A stretch of 64,000 nt of DNA from an uncultured candidatus Brocadiaceae bacterium (GTDB taxonomy: Bacteria; Planctomycetota; Brocadiia; SM23-32): contig CAZFSS010000015.1 in NCBI GenBank assembly GCA_964521715.1, positions 10,060 to 74,059 on the forward strand, written 5' to 3'. Under the pieces are notes generated by a model. That model did no database searches, was not told the DNA's origin, and was given only the letters and a program-made list of their open reading frames with translations. Within the stretch, counting starts at the first letter, position 1, and every line of letters begins with the position of its first letter. Below, piece by piece: positions 10,815-16,606 of the stretch. Position numbers and translations under genes: made by a program.

Positions 10815-11876
10815 TCAGGCGGACAGGTCCCGGGGCGTGGCGCTTTTCTGCACGGCCGCCTCGATGTGTTCGTTGACGCTTAGCTCCACGAACGCCCGGG
10901 CCTCCCGGATGGCGTTCTGGATGGCCCGCCTGTCCGAAGTGCCGTGAGTTATGATGATGACGCCGTTGACGCCGAGCAACGGGGCGCCGCCGTACTCGCT
11001 GAAGTCTGCGCACTGCCGCAGATGCATGAAGAGGTCCTTGCAGAGGACGAAGCCCAACTTGTAGCGCAGGCTGCCCTCCACCTGCTCGCGCATCCAGGCC
11101 AGGAGCCGCATCACGAGGCTTTCGCTCGACTTCAGGAGCACGTTGCCGACGAAGCCGTCGCAGACGAGTATGTCACATGCATGCCGGAACAGCGCCTGGG
11201 GCTCCATGTTGCCGACGAAGTTGAGGTCCGCCCGCGAGAGCAGCTCGAACGCCTGCTTGGCGAGGTCATTGCCCTTGGCGGCTTCCTCGCCCACGTTCAG
11301 CAGGCCGACCCGCGGGTTCTTGATGCGCAGCACCTCCGTGGCGAACACGGTGGCCATGATGCCGTACTGGAGCAGGTGCCTGGGCTTGCAGTCGACGTTG
11401 GCCCCGACGTCGATGGCGACGACGGGGTAGTTGATGACCCGCATGGCGGCGGCTATCCCGGGCCGAAGGACGCCCTTGAGCCGCCCCAGCTTCAGGCTGC
11501 TGGCGGCGGCGACCGCCCCGGTGTTGCCCGCGCTCACGAAGGCGTCCGCGCGGCCGTCGGCCAGCATCTCCAGGGCGACCACGATGGAGCTCTTCTTCTT
11601 CTCCCGGAGGGCCTGGACGGGGGACTCGTGCATGCCGATGCGCTCGGGCGCGGCCACCAGCATGACGTTATCGGGCCTGCCGCCCAGGTCGCTGATCTCC
11701 TGCTCCATCCGGTCGGGCTCGCCGCACAGGATCACCTCCGTGTCGCTGTAGAGCCAGGCGGCGTTGACGGCTCCGGCCAGCCTCTCCCCGAGGGGAGCGT
11801 CCCCGCCGGTGGCGTCGAGAGCCACCCGGGCGGCGTATGGACGTGCATGGACGTCGGCCGATGGAAGGTTTGCCAT
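10815..11876 (-). CDS. plsX: Phosphate acyltransferase
   Basis: LDATGGDAP, SAGNTGA, DVGANVD, YGGAPLLG; start uncertain. Confidence 0.95.
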   Translation of the reverse strand: MANLPSADVHARPYAARVALDATGGDAPLGERLAGAVNAAWLYSDTEVILCGEPDRMEQEISDLGGRPDNVMLVAAPERIGMHESPVQALREKKKSSIVVALEMLADGRADAFVSAGNTGAVAAASSLKLGRLKGVLRPGIAAAMRVINYPVVAIDVGANVDCKPRHLLQYGIMATVFATEVLRIKNPRVGLLNVGEEAAKGNDLAKQAFELLSRADLNFVGNMEPQALFRHACDILVCDGFVGNVLLKSSESLVMRLLAWMREQVEGSLRYKLGFVLCKDLFMHLRQCADFSEYGGAPLLGVNGVIIITHGTSDRRAIQNAIREARAFVELSVNEHIEAAVQKSATPRDLSA

Positions 11877-11943
11877 GGTCCGTGGTCGCCGGCAAGCAGT
11901 CAGGCCCCGCACCTCGCGCTCAGTCCCAGTTGCACTCGGTGCC

Positions 11944-12168
11944 TTATCTCTCCACTTCCACGAGGGATCGGCCGCGATAGTAGCCGCAGTTCGGACAGAC
12001 TGCGTGAGGGGCCTTGGGTTGGCTGCAATTGCTGCAGAAGAACCTCCTGGACCGGCTCCCCTCGGCCCTCACGCGCTGGCTCTTGGGGATGTTCGGCATG
12101 GTGAGGGCCAGGTGAGACCGATTCTTGCGTTTTCGCTGTTTGCTGTGTCTTCTTTTGGGTACCGCCAC
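11944..12168 (-). CDS. rpmF: 50S ribosomal protein L32 (Zn-binding, with insertion)
   Basis: GTG start, AVPKRRHSK...CSNC...PHAVCPNCGYYRG. Confidence 0.93.
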   Translation of the reverse strand: MAVPKRRHSKQRKRKNRSHLALTMPNIPKSQRVRAEGSRSRRFFCSNCSQPKAPHAVCPNCGYYRGRSLVEVER

Positions 12169-12341
12169 TTTCGTGTCCTCTCGGAGTAATCGTTGGAGCG
12201 ACATCGCGGAAGGGACGCGAGGAAAGCCGCTCCAAGCAGCGCTTCGGTTTCGGAACGTTGCCACGAAGGCGATCGGGCACGCCCAGCTGCCAGGAGAGCC
12301 GTTCGGGGAACAGCGCCCCCCGGTTCCTTACAAGACCTGCG

Positions 12342-12371
12342 ATTCTAACTTCGGGCGGGGCTTTCTGTCAA
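12342..12371 (-). promoter_or_regulatory. Promoter of the rpmF-plsX-fab operon
   Basis: TTGACA-18 nt-TAGAAT on the minus strand. Confidence 0.7.
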
Positions 12372-12407
12372 TGGGACGCCGGCGCAGAGGCGCCGCGGGG
12401 CGCTGTC

Positions 12408-12436
12408 TTGACGGCCTGTTCCACGCCCGGTAGAAT
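12408..12436 (+). promoter_or_regulatory. Promoter of the protease operon
   Basis: TTGACG-17 nt-TAGAAT. Confidence 0.7.
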
Positions 12437-12497
12437 CGGGATGGCAATGTCGCGCGCCCCTGTGGTGCCCGTCTACAACCGAGAAGCGAGGAGACAG

Positions 12498-14198
12498 ATG
12501 ACGCTTAGAGCCTCTAACAGAATGCCGCGTGAGCCGCGTTGCGCTTCCGGCCGGATGGATGCAAGGAAGGGCTCCGAGCCCGTGCCAGGGTCAGGCACGG
12601 CGAGGAGACCTGACACAGCAGACGCCGGCCTGAGGCGCAACCCGAAGGGACGGGCGTCCTTCGCCGCATTCCGGCGTCGCGCAGGCTTGGCGCATCGGAC
12701 CCCTAATGCGCCGGCGCCCGACGCTCCTTGGCCTGCGGCGAAATCCGCTCCGTCGCGGCCACGGGTCATTCTGTTAGAGGCTCTTAGAGTGCCTGCAATG
12801 CTGTTCGTGGTCCTCGTCGCGCTCCTTGCGTCCGGCTGCGCGTCCAACGCGCGTGTGGCACGCCTTCAAGCGGAGGTGGAGCACCTTCAGCAGGTCCAGC
12901 AGCGGACCGACTTCGTGCACGTCATAAACGCCGCCAAGCGGAAGGTTTACCCCGTCATCGTCTACCTCAAGCCGATCCAGGAGACCTTCGAAGAGGGCGA
13001 ACAGGCCGAGCGCCAGGTGATTGGCAGCGGCGTCATCGTCAGCCAGGACGGCTACGTCGTCACGAACTACCACGTGGCCGAGAAGGCCACCAAGATCAGG
13101 GCCGTCCTGTCCAACGAGGAGCAGGTGACGGTCTCCGTCGTCGGCCAGGATCAGGACACGGACATCGCCCTGCTGAAGATCGACGCGGCCGAAGGCGGCG
13201 GGCCGCTGCCCTACGCCGAGTTCGGCGATTCCTCGCAGCTGGAGGAGGGCGACTTTGTGATGACCATGGGTTGCCCGCTCGGCTTGACGCGGTCCGTCTC
13301 CTTCGGCGTGGTCAGCAATACGAAGCGCTACCTGGGCGAGGATCTTTCGCGTTATAACCTGTGGATACAGACGGACGCGGCCATCAACCCCGGCAACAGC
13401 GGCGGGCCGCTGGTCAACACGAAGGGGGAGATCGTCGGCATCACCACCCTGGGCACGTCCTGGTACGAGGGCATCGGGTTCGCCATTCCCTCGGACGTGG
13501 TCGAGAGGGTCGTGGCCGACCTGAGGGAGCACGCAGAGGTCAAGAGGGTGTGGACGGGGATCACGTTCCAGGCGCTCAAGGACTTCGAGAGCAACACGAT
13601 TGTGGAGGCCGAGCGCGGGGTGCTGGTCGCCCACATCGAACCGGACTCGCCGGCGGCGGAGTCAGGACTCCAGCCCCAGGACCTGATCGTGGCGCTGAAC
13701 GGCGAGCCGGTGAGCGGCACGTTCGTCGAGGACCTGCCGGCGGTAAGGACGGCGTTCGCCCGTCTGCCCGCCGGCGAGCCCGCGACCGTGTCCGTCGAAC
13801 GGGGCGGGCAGCCCGCCACGGTGACTCTGACCCCCATCATCAAAGGTGAAGTGGAAGGCGCGGACTTCGACTGCAAAGAGTGGCAGATGACGATCAAGGA
13901 GATCAACAAGTTCGCCGACAGGGCCATCTACTACTTCCGCAAGCGAGGCGTCTACGTGCAGGGCGTCAAGCGCCCCGGCAACGCGTGGGGCAGCGGCCTG
14001 CAGGAAGGGGACATCGTGATCGAGGTCGGCGGGCGGGACGTTGATTCGCTGGAGTCGGCGCGACGGACCTACGAGGAGCTGAACGAGAGGCCGGAAGGGC
14101 AGAGGAAGGTCCTCTTGCAGGTGCTGCGCGTCGGCGTGCCCCAACTCGTCGTGCTCGACTACAACAAGCGCGACGCGGAGTACGAGGAGGAGAAGTGA
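12498..14198 (+). CDS. HtrA/DegP-like serine protease lipoprotein with PDZ domains, MITE inserted in frame near the start
   Basis: TNYHV, DTDIALLK, GNSGGPL triad; lipobox LASGC; SD AGGAG before ATG 12498; alternative ATG at 12798. Confidence 0.9.
   Translation: MTLRASNRMPREPRCASGRMDARKGSEPVPGSGTARRPDTADAGLRRNPKGRASFAAFRRRAGLAHRTPNAPAPDAPWPAAKSAPSRPRVILLEALRVPAMLFVVLVALLASGCASNARVARLQAEVEHLQQVQQRTDFVHVINAAKRKVYPVIVYLKPIQETFEEGEQAERQVIGSGVIVSQDGYVVTNYHVAEKATKIRAVLSNEEQVTVSVVGQDQDTDIALLKIDAAEGGGPLPYAEFGDSSQLEEGDFVMTMGCPLGLTRSVSFGVVSNTKRYLGEDLSRYNLWIQTDAAINPGNSGGPLVNTKGEIVGITTLGTSWYEGIGFAIPSDVVERVVADLREHAEVKRVWTGITFQALKDFESNTIVEAERGVLVAHIEPDSPAAESGLQPQDLIVALNGEPVSGTFVEDLPAVRTAFARLPAGEPATVSVERGGQPATVTLTPIIKGEVEGADFDCKEWQMTIKEINKFADRAIYYFRKRGVYVQGVKRPGNAWGSGLQEGDIVIEVGGRDVDSLESARRTYEELNERPEGQRKVLLQVLRVGVPQLVVLDYNKRDAEYEEEK
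12508..12783. mobile_element. 276-bp MITE with 17-bp TIRs and TTA target duplication
   Basis: TTA|GAGCCTCTAACAGAATG...CATTCTGTTAGAGGCTC|TTA; no transposase; internal hairpins. Confidence 0.88.
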
Positions 14199-16606
14199 AC
14201 ACCGCAAAGCAGACGCCGGTCGTCCTCGTCGCGTTGGCGCTGGCAGCCGTCCAGCTATGGTGGCCCGCCGTCAGGGCCTGCCGGGCCGAGCCCGACGTGG
14301 GCGCGCTGGAGGCCGAGCAGGTCCAGGAAGAGGAGGCGCAGAGGGAGGCCGTGCAAAGGGCCAGGGAGATGGCGTCTCAGCTCTTCTACGACGTGCGCCT
14401 CACCTTCACGGACTTCCAGCCGAGCACCGTTCGCGAGATCGAGCAGCACTTCGCTTACGGTTGGGTCAACAACCTGGCGATGCGGCTGGCGATCGACAAG
14501 CGCACCGTGACGCTTGACGCTATGCTGGTCGATCCCGAACAGGGCCTGTTCGTCATGGCCGACCCGGACATCAACCTGGACTCCGTGGCATCCCTTGAGC
14601 TGGTCACGGACTCGGGCGAGACGCATCCCGTCGAGGTAGTCGGCCTATACCCCCAGCAGAGCGCCTGGCTGCTGCAAGCCTCGGGCCTGAAGCTTCAGGT
14701 GACGATGCCCCGTTTCGCAGCGGACGCGGTGCAGGACGGCCAGAAGGTGCTGCTGACGGACGTGACACGATTCGCCGGGCGGAAAGACGTCAGGGTCCGG
14801 GCGCTCACCCTGAACAGCTACCTGACCCACGGGGACGAGCTGGAGATGTTCCCCCTTGGCCGGGGCGGCGTGGAGCAGCTCCAGGGCGACGAGTGGCCGG
14901 TGAGCAACTGGCTGCTGTTCGACAGGGAGGGCCAGGTGGCTGCCATCGTCGTCTGGCCCGTCCTGATCCGGATGGGGGACCGGGCGAATTACTTCGCCGG
15001 CTGGCCGACGCCTGCGGATGCCCTGTCGATGGGCGCGCTTCGCGAGACGATCACGGGCGCGGTCAGGGAGGTGGACCGCTGGACGCGCGGCGTGAAGTTC
15101 CATTTCCGCCAGGAGGAGCAGGCCGGCCGCCCATCCTACTACGCGCGCAGCGGCGGCCGCGAGGACGTGCCCGAGGACGAATGGATCACCTACGGCCTGT
15201 CGGTGAGCGCCGACCTGATCTTCGTTCCCTATGAGCTGGACCGGGAAAGGATCGAGAGGATCGAGCGCGTCGAGGTGCTGACGGATCACGGGCCGGTGCC
15301 GGCGGAGTTCGCCGGCGCGTTCGAGGAGTTCGGGGGCATGCTCGTGGCGCCGTCCGAGCCGATGGACTTCGTGCCGGACCTCTATGAGTCCAGGCCGATC
15401 GACGACCTGACCGTATTCGTGGACGTGTCCGTCAAGCACCGCTTCGGGTCAAAGGACGCGCTGCCCAAGTACAACCGCTTCTTTGGCACGCAGAAGGGCT
15501 ACAAAGACAGGGCATTCCGCGATCCGGAGCGTCCGCTGCTGGCCGGATCGTTTGTGCTTACGCAGGACGGGCGCCTGTATGGCTTTGCCACCTATGAGAA
15601 GCGCTACGAGAGCGTGGCCGAACAGGAAGCGCTTCGTTTCCGGGCGGGCTACGGCTCTTCCGTTGCCTACTACGCCGCAGGGGGGGAAGACGTCCGCTGC
15701 TTCAGCTTTGCCGATGCGAAAGAGCAGTTCCAGAATCCCCAGCGGCACCTCGACCCCCGCATCAAGGTGAAGAGGATGCAGGAGCGGAAGGAATTGGCAT
15801 GGCTGGGCGTGGAGTTCCAGGCCATAACGCCCGAGCTGGCCAAGGAACTGGACGTCGAGAAGGAGACGCGGGATGGGCTCTACGGCTTGCTTGTGAACCT
15901 CGTGTACGACGACTCGCCGGCCCAGAGGTTGGGCATTGAGCCTGGCGACGTGCTGCTGAAAGTCCAGGAGAAGGGCAAGGCGGGCGAGCATCTGCTCCGC
16001 GCCGAGGCGGACCGCTACTACCGGGGCAGCCTGGACAGCCTCCGGTACGCGAGTTCCCTGCCCGCTAGCGCGTCCCTCGCTGCCCGCGGCTGGTTCAACA
16101 GAAGGAACTTCCTGACGGAGCTGCTGACCGGTCTCGGCGTCGGCACGGACCTCATCCTGACCTTCAGCCACGGGCATGAGGTGAGGACCGCCGAGTTCAC
16201 GATCGAGAAGGCTCCCCCGGACCTCAGCAGCGCCGAGAAGTACAAGAGCGTATCTACCGGCCTCACCGCCAAGGACGTCACATACGAGGTGCGACGCATC
16301 CTGAGGCTGCCCGCAGGATTCGCGGGGGTCATCGTCTACGAGGTAGAGCCCGGTTCCGCGGCAGCCGTCGGTCAGATCACGCCCATGGAGTTCATCGAGG
16401 AGATCAACGGCAGGCCGGTGCCCGACATCGGGGCGTTCCAGGCCATCCTCGAGCAACTCGCGGCCAGCGGGGCCCGGTCGGCGACGCTCAAGGTGCGCAA
16501 CCTCGACCAGTCTCGCTTCGTCGAGGTCCAGCTCGAACAGCCGCGCGAGGGGCAACGGGCTTCGGAGCAATTGCCCCAAAGCGTCCCGGGACTGGTGCCC
16601 GAGTGA
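14195..16606 (+). CDS. Exported 803-aa protein with C-terminal PDZ domains
   Basis: Signal-peptide-like N-terminus; WLGVEFQ...GIEPGDVLLKV and GVIVYEVEPGSAA...IEEING; GTGA overlap with the protease stop. Confidence 0.8.
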   Translation: MNTAKQTPVVLVALALAAVQLWWPAVRACRAEPDVGALEAEQVQEEEAQREAVQRAREMASQLFYDVRLTFTDFQPSTVREIEQHFAYGWVNNLAMRLAIDKRTVTLDAMLVDPEQGLFVMADPDINLDSVASLELVTDSGETHPVEVVGLYPQQSAWLLQASGLKLQVTMPRFAADAVQDGQKVLLTDVTRFAGRKDVRVRALTLNSYLTHGDELEMFPLGRGGVEQLQGDEWPVSNWLLFDREGQVAAIVVWPVLIRMGDRANYFAGWPTPADALSMGALRETITGAVREVDRWTRGVKFHFRQEEQAGRPSYYARSGGREDVPEDEWITYGLSVSADLIFVPYELDRERIERIERVEVLTDHGPVPAEFAGAFEEFGGMLVAPSEPMDFVPDLYESRPIDDLTVFVDVSVKHRFGSKDALPKYNRFFGTQKGYKDRAFRDPERPLLAGSFVLTQDGRLYGFATYEKRYESVAEQEALRFRAGYGSSVAYYAAGGEDVRCFSFADAKEQFQNPQRHLDPRIKVKRMQERKELAWLGVEFQAITPELAKELDVEKETRDGLYGLLVNLVYDDSPAQRLGIEPGDVLLKVQEKGKAGEHLLRAEADRYYRGSLDSLRYASSLPASASLAARGWFNRRNFLTELLTGLGVGTDLILTFSHGHEVRTAEFTIEKAPPDLSSAEKYKSVSTGLTAKDVTYEVRRILRLPAGFAGVIVYEVEPGSAAAVGQITPMEFIEEINGRPVPDIGAFQAILEQLAASGARSATLKVRNLDQSRFVEVQLEQPREGQRASEQLPQSVPGLVPE

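What the first reader, a model, noticed from the sequence alone, without database searches (positions are those of the whole stretch)
12498..12800. MITE inserted exactly in frame into a lipoprotein signal peptide
Seen: 17-bp perfect TIRs (12508-12524, 12767-12783) with flanking TTA duplicated. The added 279 nt are 93 codons with no stop. Removing them restores MTLRVPAMLFVVLVALLASG-C, a clean lipoprotein signal behind SD AGGAG. The interior folds into nested hairpins. Knowledge: 3-bp TNA duplications typify IS5-family IS1031/ISL2-type elements, and frame-preserving palindromic insertions are known from Rickettsia RPEs. Inference: a non-autonomous family that can add peptide to proteins or retune export/translation of an HtrA protease.
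Basis: partly seen in the sequence, partly recalled or inferred. Interest (0 to 1): 0.8.

Follow-up and report, generated by a model that had tools for sequence, protein, structure and literature searches.

The report
In-frame MITE in a lipoprotein signal peptide
A 276-bp non-autonomous transposon has landed between codons 3 and 4 of a secreted HtrA-type protease gene without breaking its reading frame, and it belongs to a multi-copy Planctomycetota family whose length and stop-free frame seem to be kept so that copies can sit inside genes, much like the palindromic elements of Rickettsia.

Summary
Window 12508-12783 is a 276-bp element with perfect 17-bp terminal inverted repeats (TIRs), flanked by a duplicated TTA. 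It adds 93 stop-free codons after codon 3 of an HtrA-family lipoprotein gene.

An 83%-identical ortholog starts MTLSTPGKLLLVLIMLAAHGC and has the same promoter, leader and start codon. It is the empty site.

The element is a real MITE. About 40 distinct copies (68-100% identity) lie at unrelated metagenome loci, mostly with TTA or TAA duplications. 874-bp IS5-family elements (IS427/IS1031-like, two-ORF transposase) in Planctomycetota genomes carry the same TIR.

- 34 of 40 copies are multiples of 3 in length, and all six multi-base indels are multiples of 3.
- One reading phase is stop-free in both orientations in about 80% of copies.
- The interior fold is kept by compensatory changes.
- Other copies sit in frame in a second lipoprotein signal (also with an ortholog empty site), a Sec signal, a prepilin leader, and the middle of a methyltransferase domain.

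Whether HtrA is translated through the element or from a downstream start (GTG 12789 or ATG 12798) is not shown. In-frame MITEs are already known (RPEs, ERIC, QMITE), so this is a new member of a known kind.

The parts
12408..12436 (+). Promoter-like site TTGACG-17 nt-TAGAAT for the HtrA operon
   Evidence: Consensus scan: 10 of 12 matches, with 0.0 expected in shuffles. Both hexamers are conserved in the 83% ortholog L093.
12489..12493 (+). Shine-Dalgarno-like AGGAG, 4 nt before the ancestral start codon
   Evidence: Read directly from the sequence.
12498..12500 (+). Ancestral start codon ATG (reads MTL and then the element)
   Evidence: CAGATGACGCT is identical in the ortholog L093, whose protein P0002 starts MTLSTPGK.
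12505..12507 (.). Left copy of the target-site duplication, TTA
   Evidence: TTA/TTA is the commonest duplication in the family (12 copies).
12508..12783 (+). 276-bp MITE. Reading frame f2 (codons starting at 12510) is stop-free, and so is the matching frame on the opposite strand.
   Evidence: Copies 100% (L141), 99.6% (L140) and 99.3% (L025) identical lie at other loci.
12508..12524 (+). Left terminal inverted repeat GAGCCTCTAACAGAATG
   Evidence: The same 17-mer ends 874-bp IS5-family elements in L054 and L060.
12767..12783 (-). Right terminal inverted repeat, an exact reverse complement of the left one
12784..12786 (.). Right copy of the target-site duplication, TTA
12789..12791 (+). In-frame GTG, 8 nt after the GAGG that lies inside the right TIR. 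A possible re-initiation codon.
   Evidence: (in-frame start 5 nt after the element end) and the sequence. Its use is inferred only.
12798..12800 (+). In-frame ATG used by the public gene call (466-aa product MLFVVLVALLASGC...)
   Evidence: P0001 is 466 aa and 100% identical to this reading.
12801..12839 (+). Hydrophobic core and lipobox LLASG-C of the signal peptide; the Cys codon is 12837-12839
   Evidence: Translation. A G-C at this position is conserved in orthologs P0002-P0010.
12498..14198 (+). HtrA/DegP-family serine protease gene (Trypsin_2 plus two PDZ domains) with the element inserted in frame
   Evidence: Pfam hits, orthologs, and conserved neighbours (L32, PlsX, FabH, FabD on one side and an 804-aa PDZ protein downstream) in L093.

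Best explanation
Shown: a 276-bp non-autonomous transposon (MITE) inserted at a TTA spanning codons 3 and 4 (CTT AGA) of a lipoprotein HtrA-family protease gene and duplicated the TTA. Its terminal repeats and 3-bp T-W-A duplication match those of 874-bp IS5-family (IS427/IS1031-like) insertion sequences, so a transposase of that kind supplied in trans is the presumed mobiliser.

Shown at sequence level: the element belongs to a family of at least about 40 copies in Planctomycetota-rich metagenomes. The family has three notable properties.
- Lengths are multiples of three.
- The single reading phase that T-W-A targets most often occupy inside GC-rich genes is stop-free in either orientation.
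- The nested-hairpin fold is kept by compensatory changes.
An insertion into a gene in that phase therefore adds about 92 basic, low-complexity residues instead of truncating the protein.

Inferred: in HtrA the added residues lie in the positively charged n-region of a signal peptide that signal peptidase II removes. Translation from the ancestral ATG 12498 through the element would then give a long cleavable leader and an unchanged mature protease. The stable hairpin begins 3 nt after that ATG, so it probably lowers initiation there. Initiation at GTG 12789 or ATG 12798 is the alternative route to the same mature protein.
For: Anatomy and chance.

Empty site: ortholog P0002 starts MTLSTPGKLLLVLIMLAAHGC, and the window with the element removed aligns without a gap through promoter, leader, ATG and signal peptide.

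Family and duplications. A 99% identical copy in L025 sits at the TAA stop codon of a glycosyltransferase gene.

Cognate IS.

Lengths: 34 of 40 copies are multiples of 3. All six multi-base indels (+39, +39, +12, +9, +18, -3) are multiples of 3. The 1-2-nt indels that separate subfamilies sum to 0, -3 or +3. All six lengths that are not multiples of 3 belong to single copies. As a control, 33 other short elements with the same TIR show no such bias, with 13 of 33 being multiples of 3.

Open frames: 32 of 40 copies in f2 and 33 of 40 in r2.

Fold: 76 predicted pairs, 24 with compensatory changes.

Target phase: 66 of 125 TTA/TAA sites in window genes, and 4 of 4 CTTAG sites, lie in the compatible phase.

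Independent in-frame copies:
- L116, a lipoprotein/Tat-like signal. The restored N-terminus MSAVL|RVSDSSYAPLSRRIFLG...GC matches ortholog P0130, MTAMLRSSNASHSRRILVG...GC, and no start codon lies between the element and the hydrophobic core.
- L095, a Sec signal on an SH3-domain protein.
- L128/P0148, a prepilin leader on a GspJ-like pseudopilin.
- P0149/L156, a 309-bp copy that splits a Methyltransf_25 domain between model positions 45 and 44, with the frame kept.

Charge: the 100-residue extension has 21 K+R against 7 D+E. Family means are +9.8 for f2 and +7.6 for r2.
Against: There is no expression data, so translation through the element is inferred.

The public gene call starts at ATG 12798.

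Identical or near-identical copies elsewhere suggest the HtrA insertion is recent. An intact gene therefore says little about whether the insertion is tolerated.

A founder open in both orientations is expected in about 10% of shuffles.

A direct test for avoidance of stop-creating substitutions had no power: 3 observed against about 3 expected.

The in-phase excess among copies next to gene starts is not significant (about 9 of 22 against 7 expected).

Only 20 predicted proteins in 1.8 billion representatives carry the peptide.

No autonomous IS was found in the window (only the element itself matches, and it has no transposase ORF) or on the MITE-bearing metagenome contigs.
Confidence: 0.7

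Rival explanations
1. The element now acts as a structured 5' leader. The ancestral start is blocked by the hairpin, translation begins at GTG 12789 or ATG 12798, and the in-frame, stop-free state in HtrA is incidental. The SD at 12489-12493 could even be brought near ATG 12798 across the base of the helix (a split ribosome-binding site).
For: The gene caller starts at 12798. In-frame GTG and ATG lie 5 and 14 nt after the element. A GAGG inside the right TIR sits 8 nt before GTG 12789. The 31-nt terminal helix starts at +4 of ATG 12498, and in the minimum-energy fold the SD region pairs with bases near 12800. Being open by chance has a probability of about 0.26.
Against: A product starting MLFVV or MPAMLFVV has no positively charged n-region, whereas P0002, P0004, P0006, P0007, P0009, P0010 and P0013 have K or R before the hydrophobic core (the P0003/P0005 gene calls start at MLAVGC and show no n-region). 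In L116 no start codon exists between the element and the hydrophobic core, and in P0149 the element is mid-domain, so read-through must occur at least there if those genes work. The multiple-of-3 pattern across the family has no explanation under a purely untranslated role.
Confidence: 0.3
2. The insertion is a recent, mildly or strongly harmful event, so this HtrA allele is impaired or on its way to being a pseudogene, and nothing adaptive or neutral is going on at this locus.
For: Copies 99-100% identical to this one exist at other loci, so there has been little time for decay. The protein cluster has a single member and no identical gene is on record elsewhere. The downstream 803-aa gene overlaps the HtrA stop and depends on the same transcript.
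Against: The insertion is in frame, stop-free and confined to a segment that is cleaved off. Older in-frame copies with decayed duplications still have intact host reading frames: L095 with GAA/CAA and L156 with no recognisable duplication.
Confidence: 0.2
3. The repeat is primarily a functional structured RNA or DNA-binding module, and its mobility is secondary. The conserved fold and the invariant central block GCGCAACCCGAAGGGACGG would then be the selected feature.
For: There are 24 base pairs with compensatory changes, and conserved sequence blocks persist even in copies only 68-72% identical. The fold has z = -8.8.
Against: There is no Rfam match at E up to 1. Copies occur in both orientations and in 5' leaders, inside coding sequence and at stop codons. 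TIRs and target duplications show transposition. Hairpin-rich interiors are usual for MITEs.
Confidence: 0.15

Closest known systems
Rickettsia palindromic elements (RPEs; Ogata et al. 2000, as summarised in PMC10969869)
   Same: Both are short, hairpin-forming repeats found many times inside unrelated protein genes in frame, adding a peptide segment without destroying the reading frame. The family-level properties are compatible with translation.
   Different: This family has clear IS5-type TIRs, a 3-bp T-W-A duplication and a matching autonomous IS. It is about 276 bp rather than about 150 bp and lives in GC-rich, free-living Planctomycetota. The encoded peptide is not conserved, because subfamilies shift frame locally. 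Most copies seen are intergenic, and most in-gene copies sit in N-terminal leaders. No sequence comparison with RPEs was made.
IS5-family insertion sequences of the IS427/IS1031 groups and the MITEs derived from them
   Same: The ends start with GAG and the target duplication is 3 bp TNA. The partner is about 870 bp with DUF4096 plus a DDE domain in two overlapping ORFs, matching NF033580.
   Different: The MITE interior shares nothing with the IS beyond the ends. The exact subgroup was not determined because ISfinder was not available. PMC2516522 notes that the IS427 and IS1031 features overlap.
Intragenic ERIC elements, Coxiella QMITE1/2 and Anabaena MITEs that form in-frame fusions (PMC10969869, PMC5896051)
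   Same: These are MITEs overlapping annotated genes and contributing residues at gene ends or in the middle.
   Different: Those reports describe individual fusions. The papers read here do not report length kept in multiples of 3, an open phase in both orientations, or repeated insertion into cleavable signal or leader peptides. I did not search exhaustively.

Membership tests
MITE (non-autonomous TIR transposon) | Terminal inverted repeats | tested here: met
   There is a perfect 17-bp pair, extending to 31 nt at 87% complementarity.
MITE (non-autonomous TIR transposon) | Target-site duplication flanking the element | tested here: met
   TTA is present on both sides in the window. Across the family there are 12 TTA, 3 TAA, 1 TCA and 1 TAG exact pairs, and most others differ by one base.
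MITE (non-autonomous TIR transposon) | Multiple copies at unrelated loci | tested here: met
   About 40 distinct full-length copies with different flanks. There is only one copy in the 64-kb window. The copy number per genome is not known.
MITE (non-autonomous TIR transposon) | Small size with no transposase | tested here: met
   The element is 276 bp, and the translated frame has no Pfam hit.
MITE (non-autonomous TIR transposon) | An empty site in a relative | tested here: met
   P0002/L093 at 83% identity. A second case is L116 compared with P0130.
MITE (non-autonomous TIR transposon) | An autonomous element with the same ends in the same genome | tested here: inconclusive
   The same 17-bp TIR sits on full IS copies in other MAGs (L003, L017, L031, L054, L060, L066). 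None was found in the window or on the MITE-bearing metagenome contigs.
IS5 family, IS427/IS1031 groups | GAG ends, a 3-bp TNA duplication and a DDE transposase of the IS5 type | tested here: met
   (NF033580 at 130 bits against a cutoff of 110, split over two ORFs at about profile position 105).
IS5 family, IS427/IS1031 groups | Mobilisation of this MITE by that transposase | not testable with these tools
   This needs a transposition assay.
RPE-like in-frame palindromic elements | Repeated in-frame insertion into unrelated protein genes | tested here: met
   Window HtrA, L116, L095, L128/P0148 and P0149/L156. L098, L124 and P0145 are possible further cases.
RPE-like in-frame palindromic elements | A conserved encoded peptide | tested here: not met
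   Subfamilies A, B and C read a stretch of about 100 nt in different frames (for example ASFAAFRRRAGLAHR against GVFGCMPVSLRLGAS) and return to the same frame at the end.
RPE-like in-frame palindromic elements | Sequence relatedness to Rickettsia RPEs | not tested
   No RPE sequences were on hand, and relatedness is not expected given the composition and ends.
Bacterial lipoprotein signal peptide | A positively charged n-region, a hydrophobic core, and a lipobox ending in Cys | tested here: met
   The restored N-terminus is MTLRVPAMLFVVLVALLASG-C. A G-C is conserved in orthologs. This was judged by pattern only, with no predictor run.
Bacterial lipoprotein signal peptide | Cleavage by signal peptidase II and lipidation | not testable with these tools
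   This needs biochemistry, for example globomycin sensitivity or mass spectrometry.
Known structured RNA families (Rfam 15) | A match to a curated covariance model | tested here: not met
   No match at E up to 1 in 11800-13300.

The most novel reading that the evidence does not exclude
This is a MITE lineage shaped by selection to be invisible to translation. Length is kept in multiples of three, and there are no stops in the one phase that T-W-A targets occupy inside GC-rich genes, in either orientation. That would let it colonise coding sequence in free-living Planctomycetota, especially N-terminal signal, lipoprotein and prepilin leaders, where the added 90-odd basic residues are cut off with the leader. 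It would be an independently evolved, transposase-linked counterpart of the Rickettsia palindromic elements, and a natural source of very long cleavable leaders.
Probability: 0.45. Interest if true: 0.65.

Novelty: new member of a known kind. Interest (0 to 1): 0.5.

Why it matters
In-frame palindromic repeats in genes have mostly been treated as a curiosity of Rickettsia and a few other lineages, and they usually lack a known mobilising enzyme. Here the ends, the duplication and a matching IS5-family element tie such a repeat to a concrete transposition mechanism.

The pattern across the family gives a testable case that a selfish element can be selected for being harmless to reading frames. 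That pattern is shared indels in multiples of three, private indels of one base, and a peptide that is not conserved while its frame is.

The repeated landing in cleavable N-terminal leaders suggests a simple rule for where proteins tolerate large insertions.

There is also a practical point for annotation. Gene callers truncate or mis-start these genes: P0001 loses its charged n-region, and P0129 and P0148 start inside the element.

Tried and rejected
- Looked for more copies or a transposase in the window. There are none.
- Rfam scan of the region found nothing.
- Looked up the window's own HtrA product to find its source contig. It is not on record.
- Tested whether substitutions avoid creating stops in the open frames. 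3 were observed against about 3 expected, so the test has no power. The mixed-subfamily consensus was also frame-broken, so I do not rely on this test.
- Tested for codon-like GC periodicity in the element. There is none (0.67/0.73/0.68), so the interior is not a relic of coding sequence.
- Shuffle test of openness. Both orientations are open in about 10% of trials, so openness alone is weak evidence.
- Phase calls from flanking GC3. The in-phase excess next to gene starts is not significant.
- Profile search of 5.8 billion proteins with the element's peptide found only 8 short hypothetical proteins. The exhaustive scan of 1.8 billion representatives gave 20 hits, which were useful as examples but not as statistics.
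- Considered a chance inverted repeat, a riboswitch-like leader and a captured gene fragment. All were rejected because of the duplications, the multi-locus copies and the lack of periodicity.
Full report
**1. The observation**

The sequence reads gcgAGGAGacagATGACGCTTA, then GAGCCTCTAACAGAATG, about 242 nt of interior, CATTCTGTTAGAGGCTC, and then TTAGAGTGCCTGCAATGCTG.
- The 17-mer and its exact reverse complement at 12508-12524 and 12767-12783 are the only matches in the window, even with three mismatches allowed. Chance expectation is 0.06.
- The repeat finder extends the arms to 31 nt at 87% complementarity.
- TTA flanks both ends.
- Element plus one TTA is 279 nt, and the frame that starts at ATG 12498 runs without a stop to 14198.
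- The RNA of 12480-12810 folds at -192 kcal/mol, z = -8.8.

**2. The host gene and the empty site**

The ORF is an HtrA/DegP-type protease with Trypsin_2 and two PDZ domains. The public gene call for this very locus (P0001, 466 aa) starts at ATG 12798.

The closest ortholog is P0002: 83% identity, 473 aa, with the same neighbours (L32, PlsX, FabH, FabD upstream, and an 804-aa PDZ protein downstream). It begins MTLSTPGKLLLVLIMLAAHGC.

With 12508-12786 removed, the window aligns with that locus without a gap. The alignment runs from a conserved TTGACG-17-TAGAAT promoter, through the leader and the shared CAGATGACGCT, into the signal peptide, giving MTLRVPAMLFVVLVALLASGC. The ancestral start is therefore ATG 12498, and the element lies between codons 3 and 4 (CTT|AGA).

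More distant orthologs keep a G-C lipobox, and most of them (not the P0003/P0005 calls) show a K or R before the hydrophobic core.

**3. It is a transposon relic with an identifiable parent**

Scanning one genome per species for the 17-mer gave 92 loci. Most are from Planctomycetota MAGs (Phycisphaerae, Pirellulales, Brocadiaceae and others).
- In 36 of them a partner repeat lies 89-474 bp away, mostly with TTA or TAA on both sides.
- Two loci (L054, L060) carry 874-bp elements with the same ends and TAA or TTA duplications. These encode DUF4096 followed by a DDE_Tnp_1 domain in two overlapping frames. They match NCBIfam NF033580 (IS5 family), split at about profile position 105.
- Further full copies are in L003, L017, L031 and L066.

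GAG ends, a 3-bp TNA duplication, about 870 bp and two ORFs fit the IS427/IS1031 groups of the IS5 family. That assignment rests on my knowledge of the ISfinder groups; PMC2516522 describes the overlap between the two groups. No autonomous copy was found in the window or on the MITE-bearing contigs.

**4. The specific family**

A metagenome scan for the TIR plus the subterminal bases returned 61 loci. BLAST and end refinement gave about 40 distinct full-length copies of 273-327 bp, 68-100% identical to the window copy.
- L141 is 100% identical, L140 99.6%, and L025/L134 99%, all at unrelated sites.
- Exact duplications: TTA 12 times, TAA 3 times, TCA once and TAG once. Most other pairs differ by one base.
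- In L025 the duplicated TTA is, on the other strand, the TAA stop codon of a glycosyltransferase gene. Five more copies abut a stop codon in the same way.

**5.

(a) Length. 34 of 40 copies are multiples of 3. All six multi-base indels (+39 twice at different places, +12, +9, +18, -3) are multiples of 3. The scattered 1-2-nt indels that separate subfamilies sum to 0, -3 or +3. The six lengths that are not multiples of 3 are each private to one copy. If the six multi-base events are independent, the probability is about 0.0014. Other short elements with the same TIR show no bias, with 13 of 33 being multiples of 3.

(b) Frames. The HtrA reading phase (f2) is stop-free in 32 of 40 copies, and the equivalent phase on the other strand (r2) in 33 of 40. 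The other four frames are almost never open.

(c) The peptide itself is not conserved. Between the compensating indels, subfamilies read different frames and then rejoin. If anything is selected, it is frame and absence of stops, not sequence.

(d) The fold is conserved. There are 76 consensus pairs, 24 with both-sided changes, and an invariant central block GCGCAACCCGAAGGGACGG.

(e) Target phase. Inside this window's genes, 66 of 125 TTA/TAA sites and 4 of 4 CTTAG sites lie in the phase (codon positions 2, 3, 1) that gives f2 or r2. The other phases would need a stop codon or the rare TTA codon.

Cautions:
- Shuffles leave both orientations open in about 10% of trials, and there is no codon periodicity.
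- The stop-avoidance test had no power.
- Copies are related by descent, so counts of copies are not counts of events.

**6. Other in-frame copies**

- L116: ATG AGC GCC GTC TTA A|element|GA GTC... restores MSAVLRVSDSSYAPLSRRIFLGIVLFALVGWTGC. The 80% ortholog P0130 starts MTAMLRSSNASHSRRILVGIVLSVGLCGSGC. There is no start codon between the element and the hydrophobic core, and the JGI gene call P0129 starts at an ATG inside the element.
- L095: MR|element|SVRLAVVLVFAFASPVFA-QT, on an SH3-domain protein, with a decayed duplication.
- L128/P0148: MKAL|element|SHLTTRRAFTLLEMLIAL, with an N_methyl motif and a T2SSJ domain.
- P0149/L156: a 309-bp copy splits a Methyltransf_25 domain (residues 46-88 match model positions 1-45, and residues 197-249 match 44-94). 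Both halves are in one frame, and the TIR changes are symmetrical (AACG/CGTT).
- L098 (DUF1284), L124 and P0145 are possible further cases. L151 and L131 are 5'-leader insertions.

Four of the clear cases, including the window, lie in N-terminal leaders that are removed on export.

**7. How it most likely works at this locus**

Shown: the insertion, its frame, the conserved promoter and start, and an extension of 100 residues with 21 K+R against 7 D+E.

Inferred: ribosomes starting at ATG 12498 read through and make a very long, basic n-region. The hydrophobic core and lipobox then direct export and cleavage, leaving the mature protease unchanged.

Against efficient initiation at ATG 12498: the terminal helix starts at +4. 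Initiation at GTG 12789 (GAGG 8 nt upstream, inside the TIR) or at ATG 12798 would give a leader with no positive charge, unlike most orthologs. I put read-through somewhat ahead of re-initiation but cannot decide between them. Because identical copies exist elsewhere, the insertion may be too recent for the intact gene to prove tolerance.

**8. Comparison with what is known**

The 2024 review PMC10969869 states that in-frame fusions by intragenic MITEs are not unusual, and that Rickettsia palindromic elements do this at high frequency and encode conserved peptides. PMC5896051 reports Coxiella QMITE copies in frame in genes.

This family works like an RPE but differs in four ways:
- It has IS5-type ends, a duplication and a candidate parent IS.
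- Its peptide is not conserved.
- It lives in GC-rich, free-living bacteria.
- It is seen mostly in cleavable leaders.

The family itself has no Rfam match. I therefore file it as a new member of a known kind. The frame-neutral selection hypothesis is the more novel reading.

**9. Verdict**

- Interest is moderate (0.5).

Noticed in passing
Alignment of family copies; window 12634-12652: A central block GCGCAACCCGAAGGGACGG is almost invariant even in copies only 68-72% identical, while the flanking stems covary. It lies at the junction between the two main hairpin domains. Its role is unknown; it could be a binding site for the transposase or a host protein, or an RNA motif.
   Followed up: partly
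L152 12591-12905, L148 5136-5462, and L100/L131/L143: Two different 39-nt hairpin-like segments are inserted at two different places in subfamilies of the element, and one of them has a further 12-nt duplication. They may be tiny nested mobile hairpins.
   Followed up: no
L025 2765-2767; L136, L124 (3693), L138, L100, L123: Several copies sit exactly at the stop codon of a neighbouring gene, so the duplicated T-W-A (or its decayed form) doubles as that gene's stop. This is a second kind of harmless landing site.
   Followed up: partly
L017 and L031 (Solirubrobacterales); L009, L033, L055 (Zixiibacteriota); L023, L039, L068 (Chloroflexota/Anaerolineales): The identical 17-bp TIR, and in the Solirubrobacterales loci L017 and L031 a related full IS, occurs outside Planctomycetota. 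This suggests horizontal spread of the IS lineage.
   Followed up: no
L051 5914-6089 and L009 5999-6149: Adjacent or nested short elements with the same TIR lie within 20 nt of each other, suggesting insertion of one MITE next to or into another.
   Followed up: no
Window 12342-12371 (- strand): A near-consensus promoter-like site TTGACA-18-TAGAAT points towards the divergent L32/PlsX/FabH gene cluster, back to back with the HtrA promoter.
   Followed up: no
Window 12486-12495 and 12600-12609: The 10-mer GCGAGGAGAC that contains the HtrA ribosome-binding site recurs exactly inside the element. It is probably chance.
   Followed up: no
P0001, P0129, P0148: Public gene calls at MITE-bearing genes start either just after the element, losing the charged n-region, or at an ATG inside it. 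N-termini and signal-peptide predictions for such genes are therefore unreliable.
   Followed up: partly
Window 14195-16606: An 803-aa protein with weak PDZ matches overlaps the HtrA stop by 4 nt (GTGA) and is syntenic in the ortholog (804 aa). It probably depends on transcription through the element.
   Followed up: no
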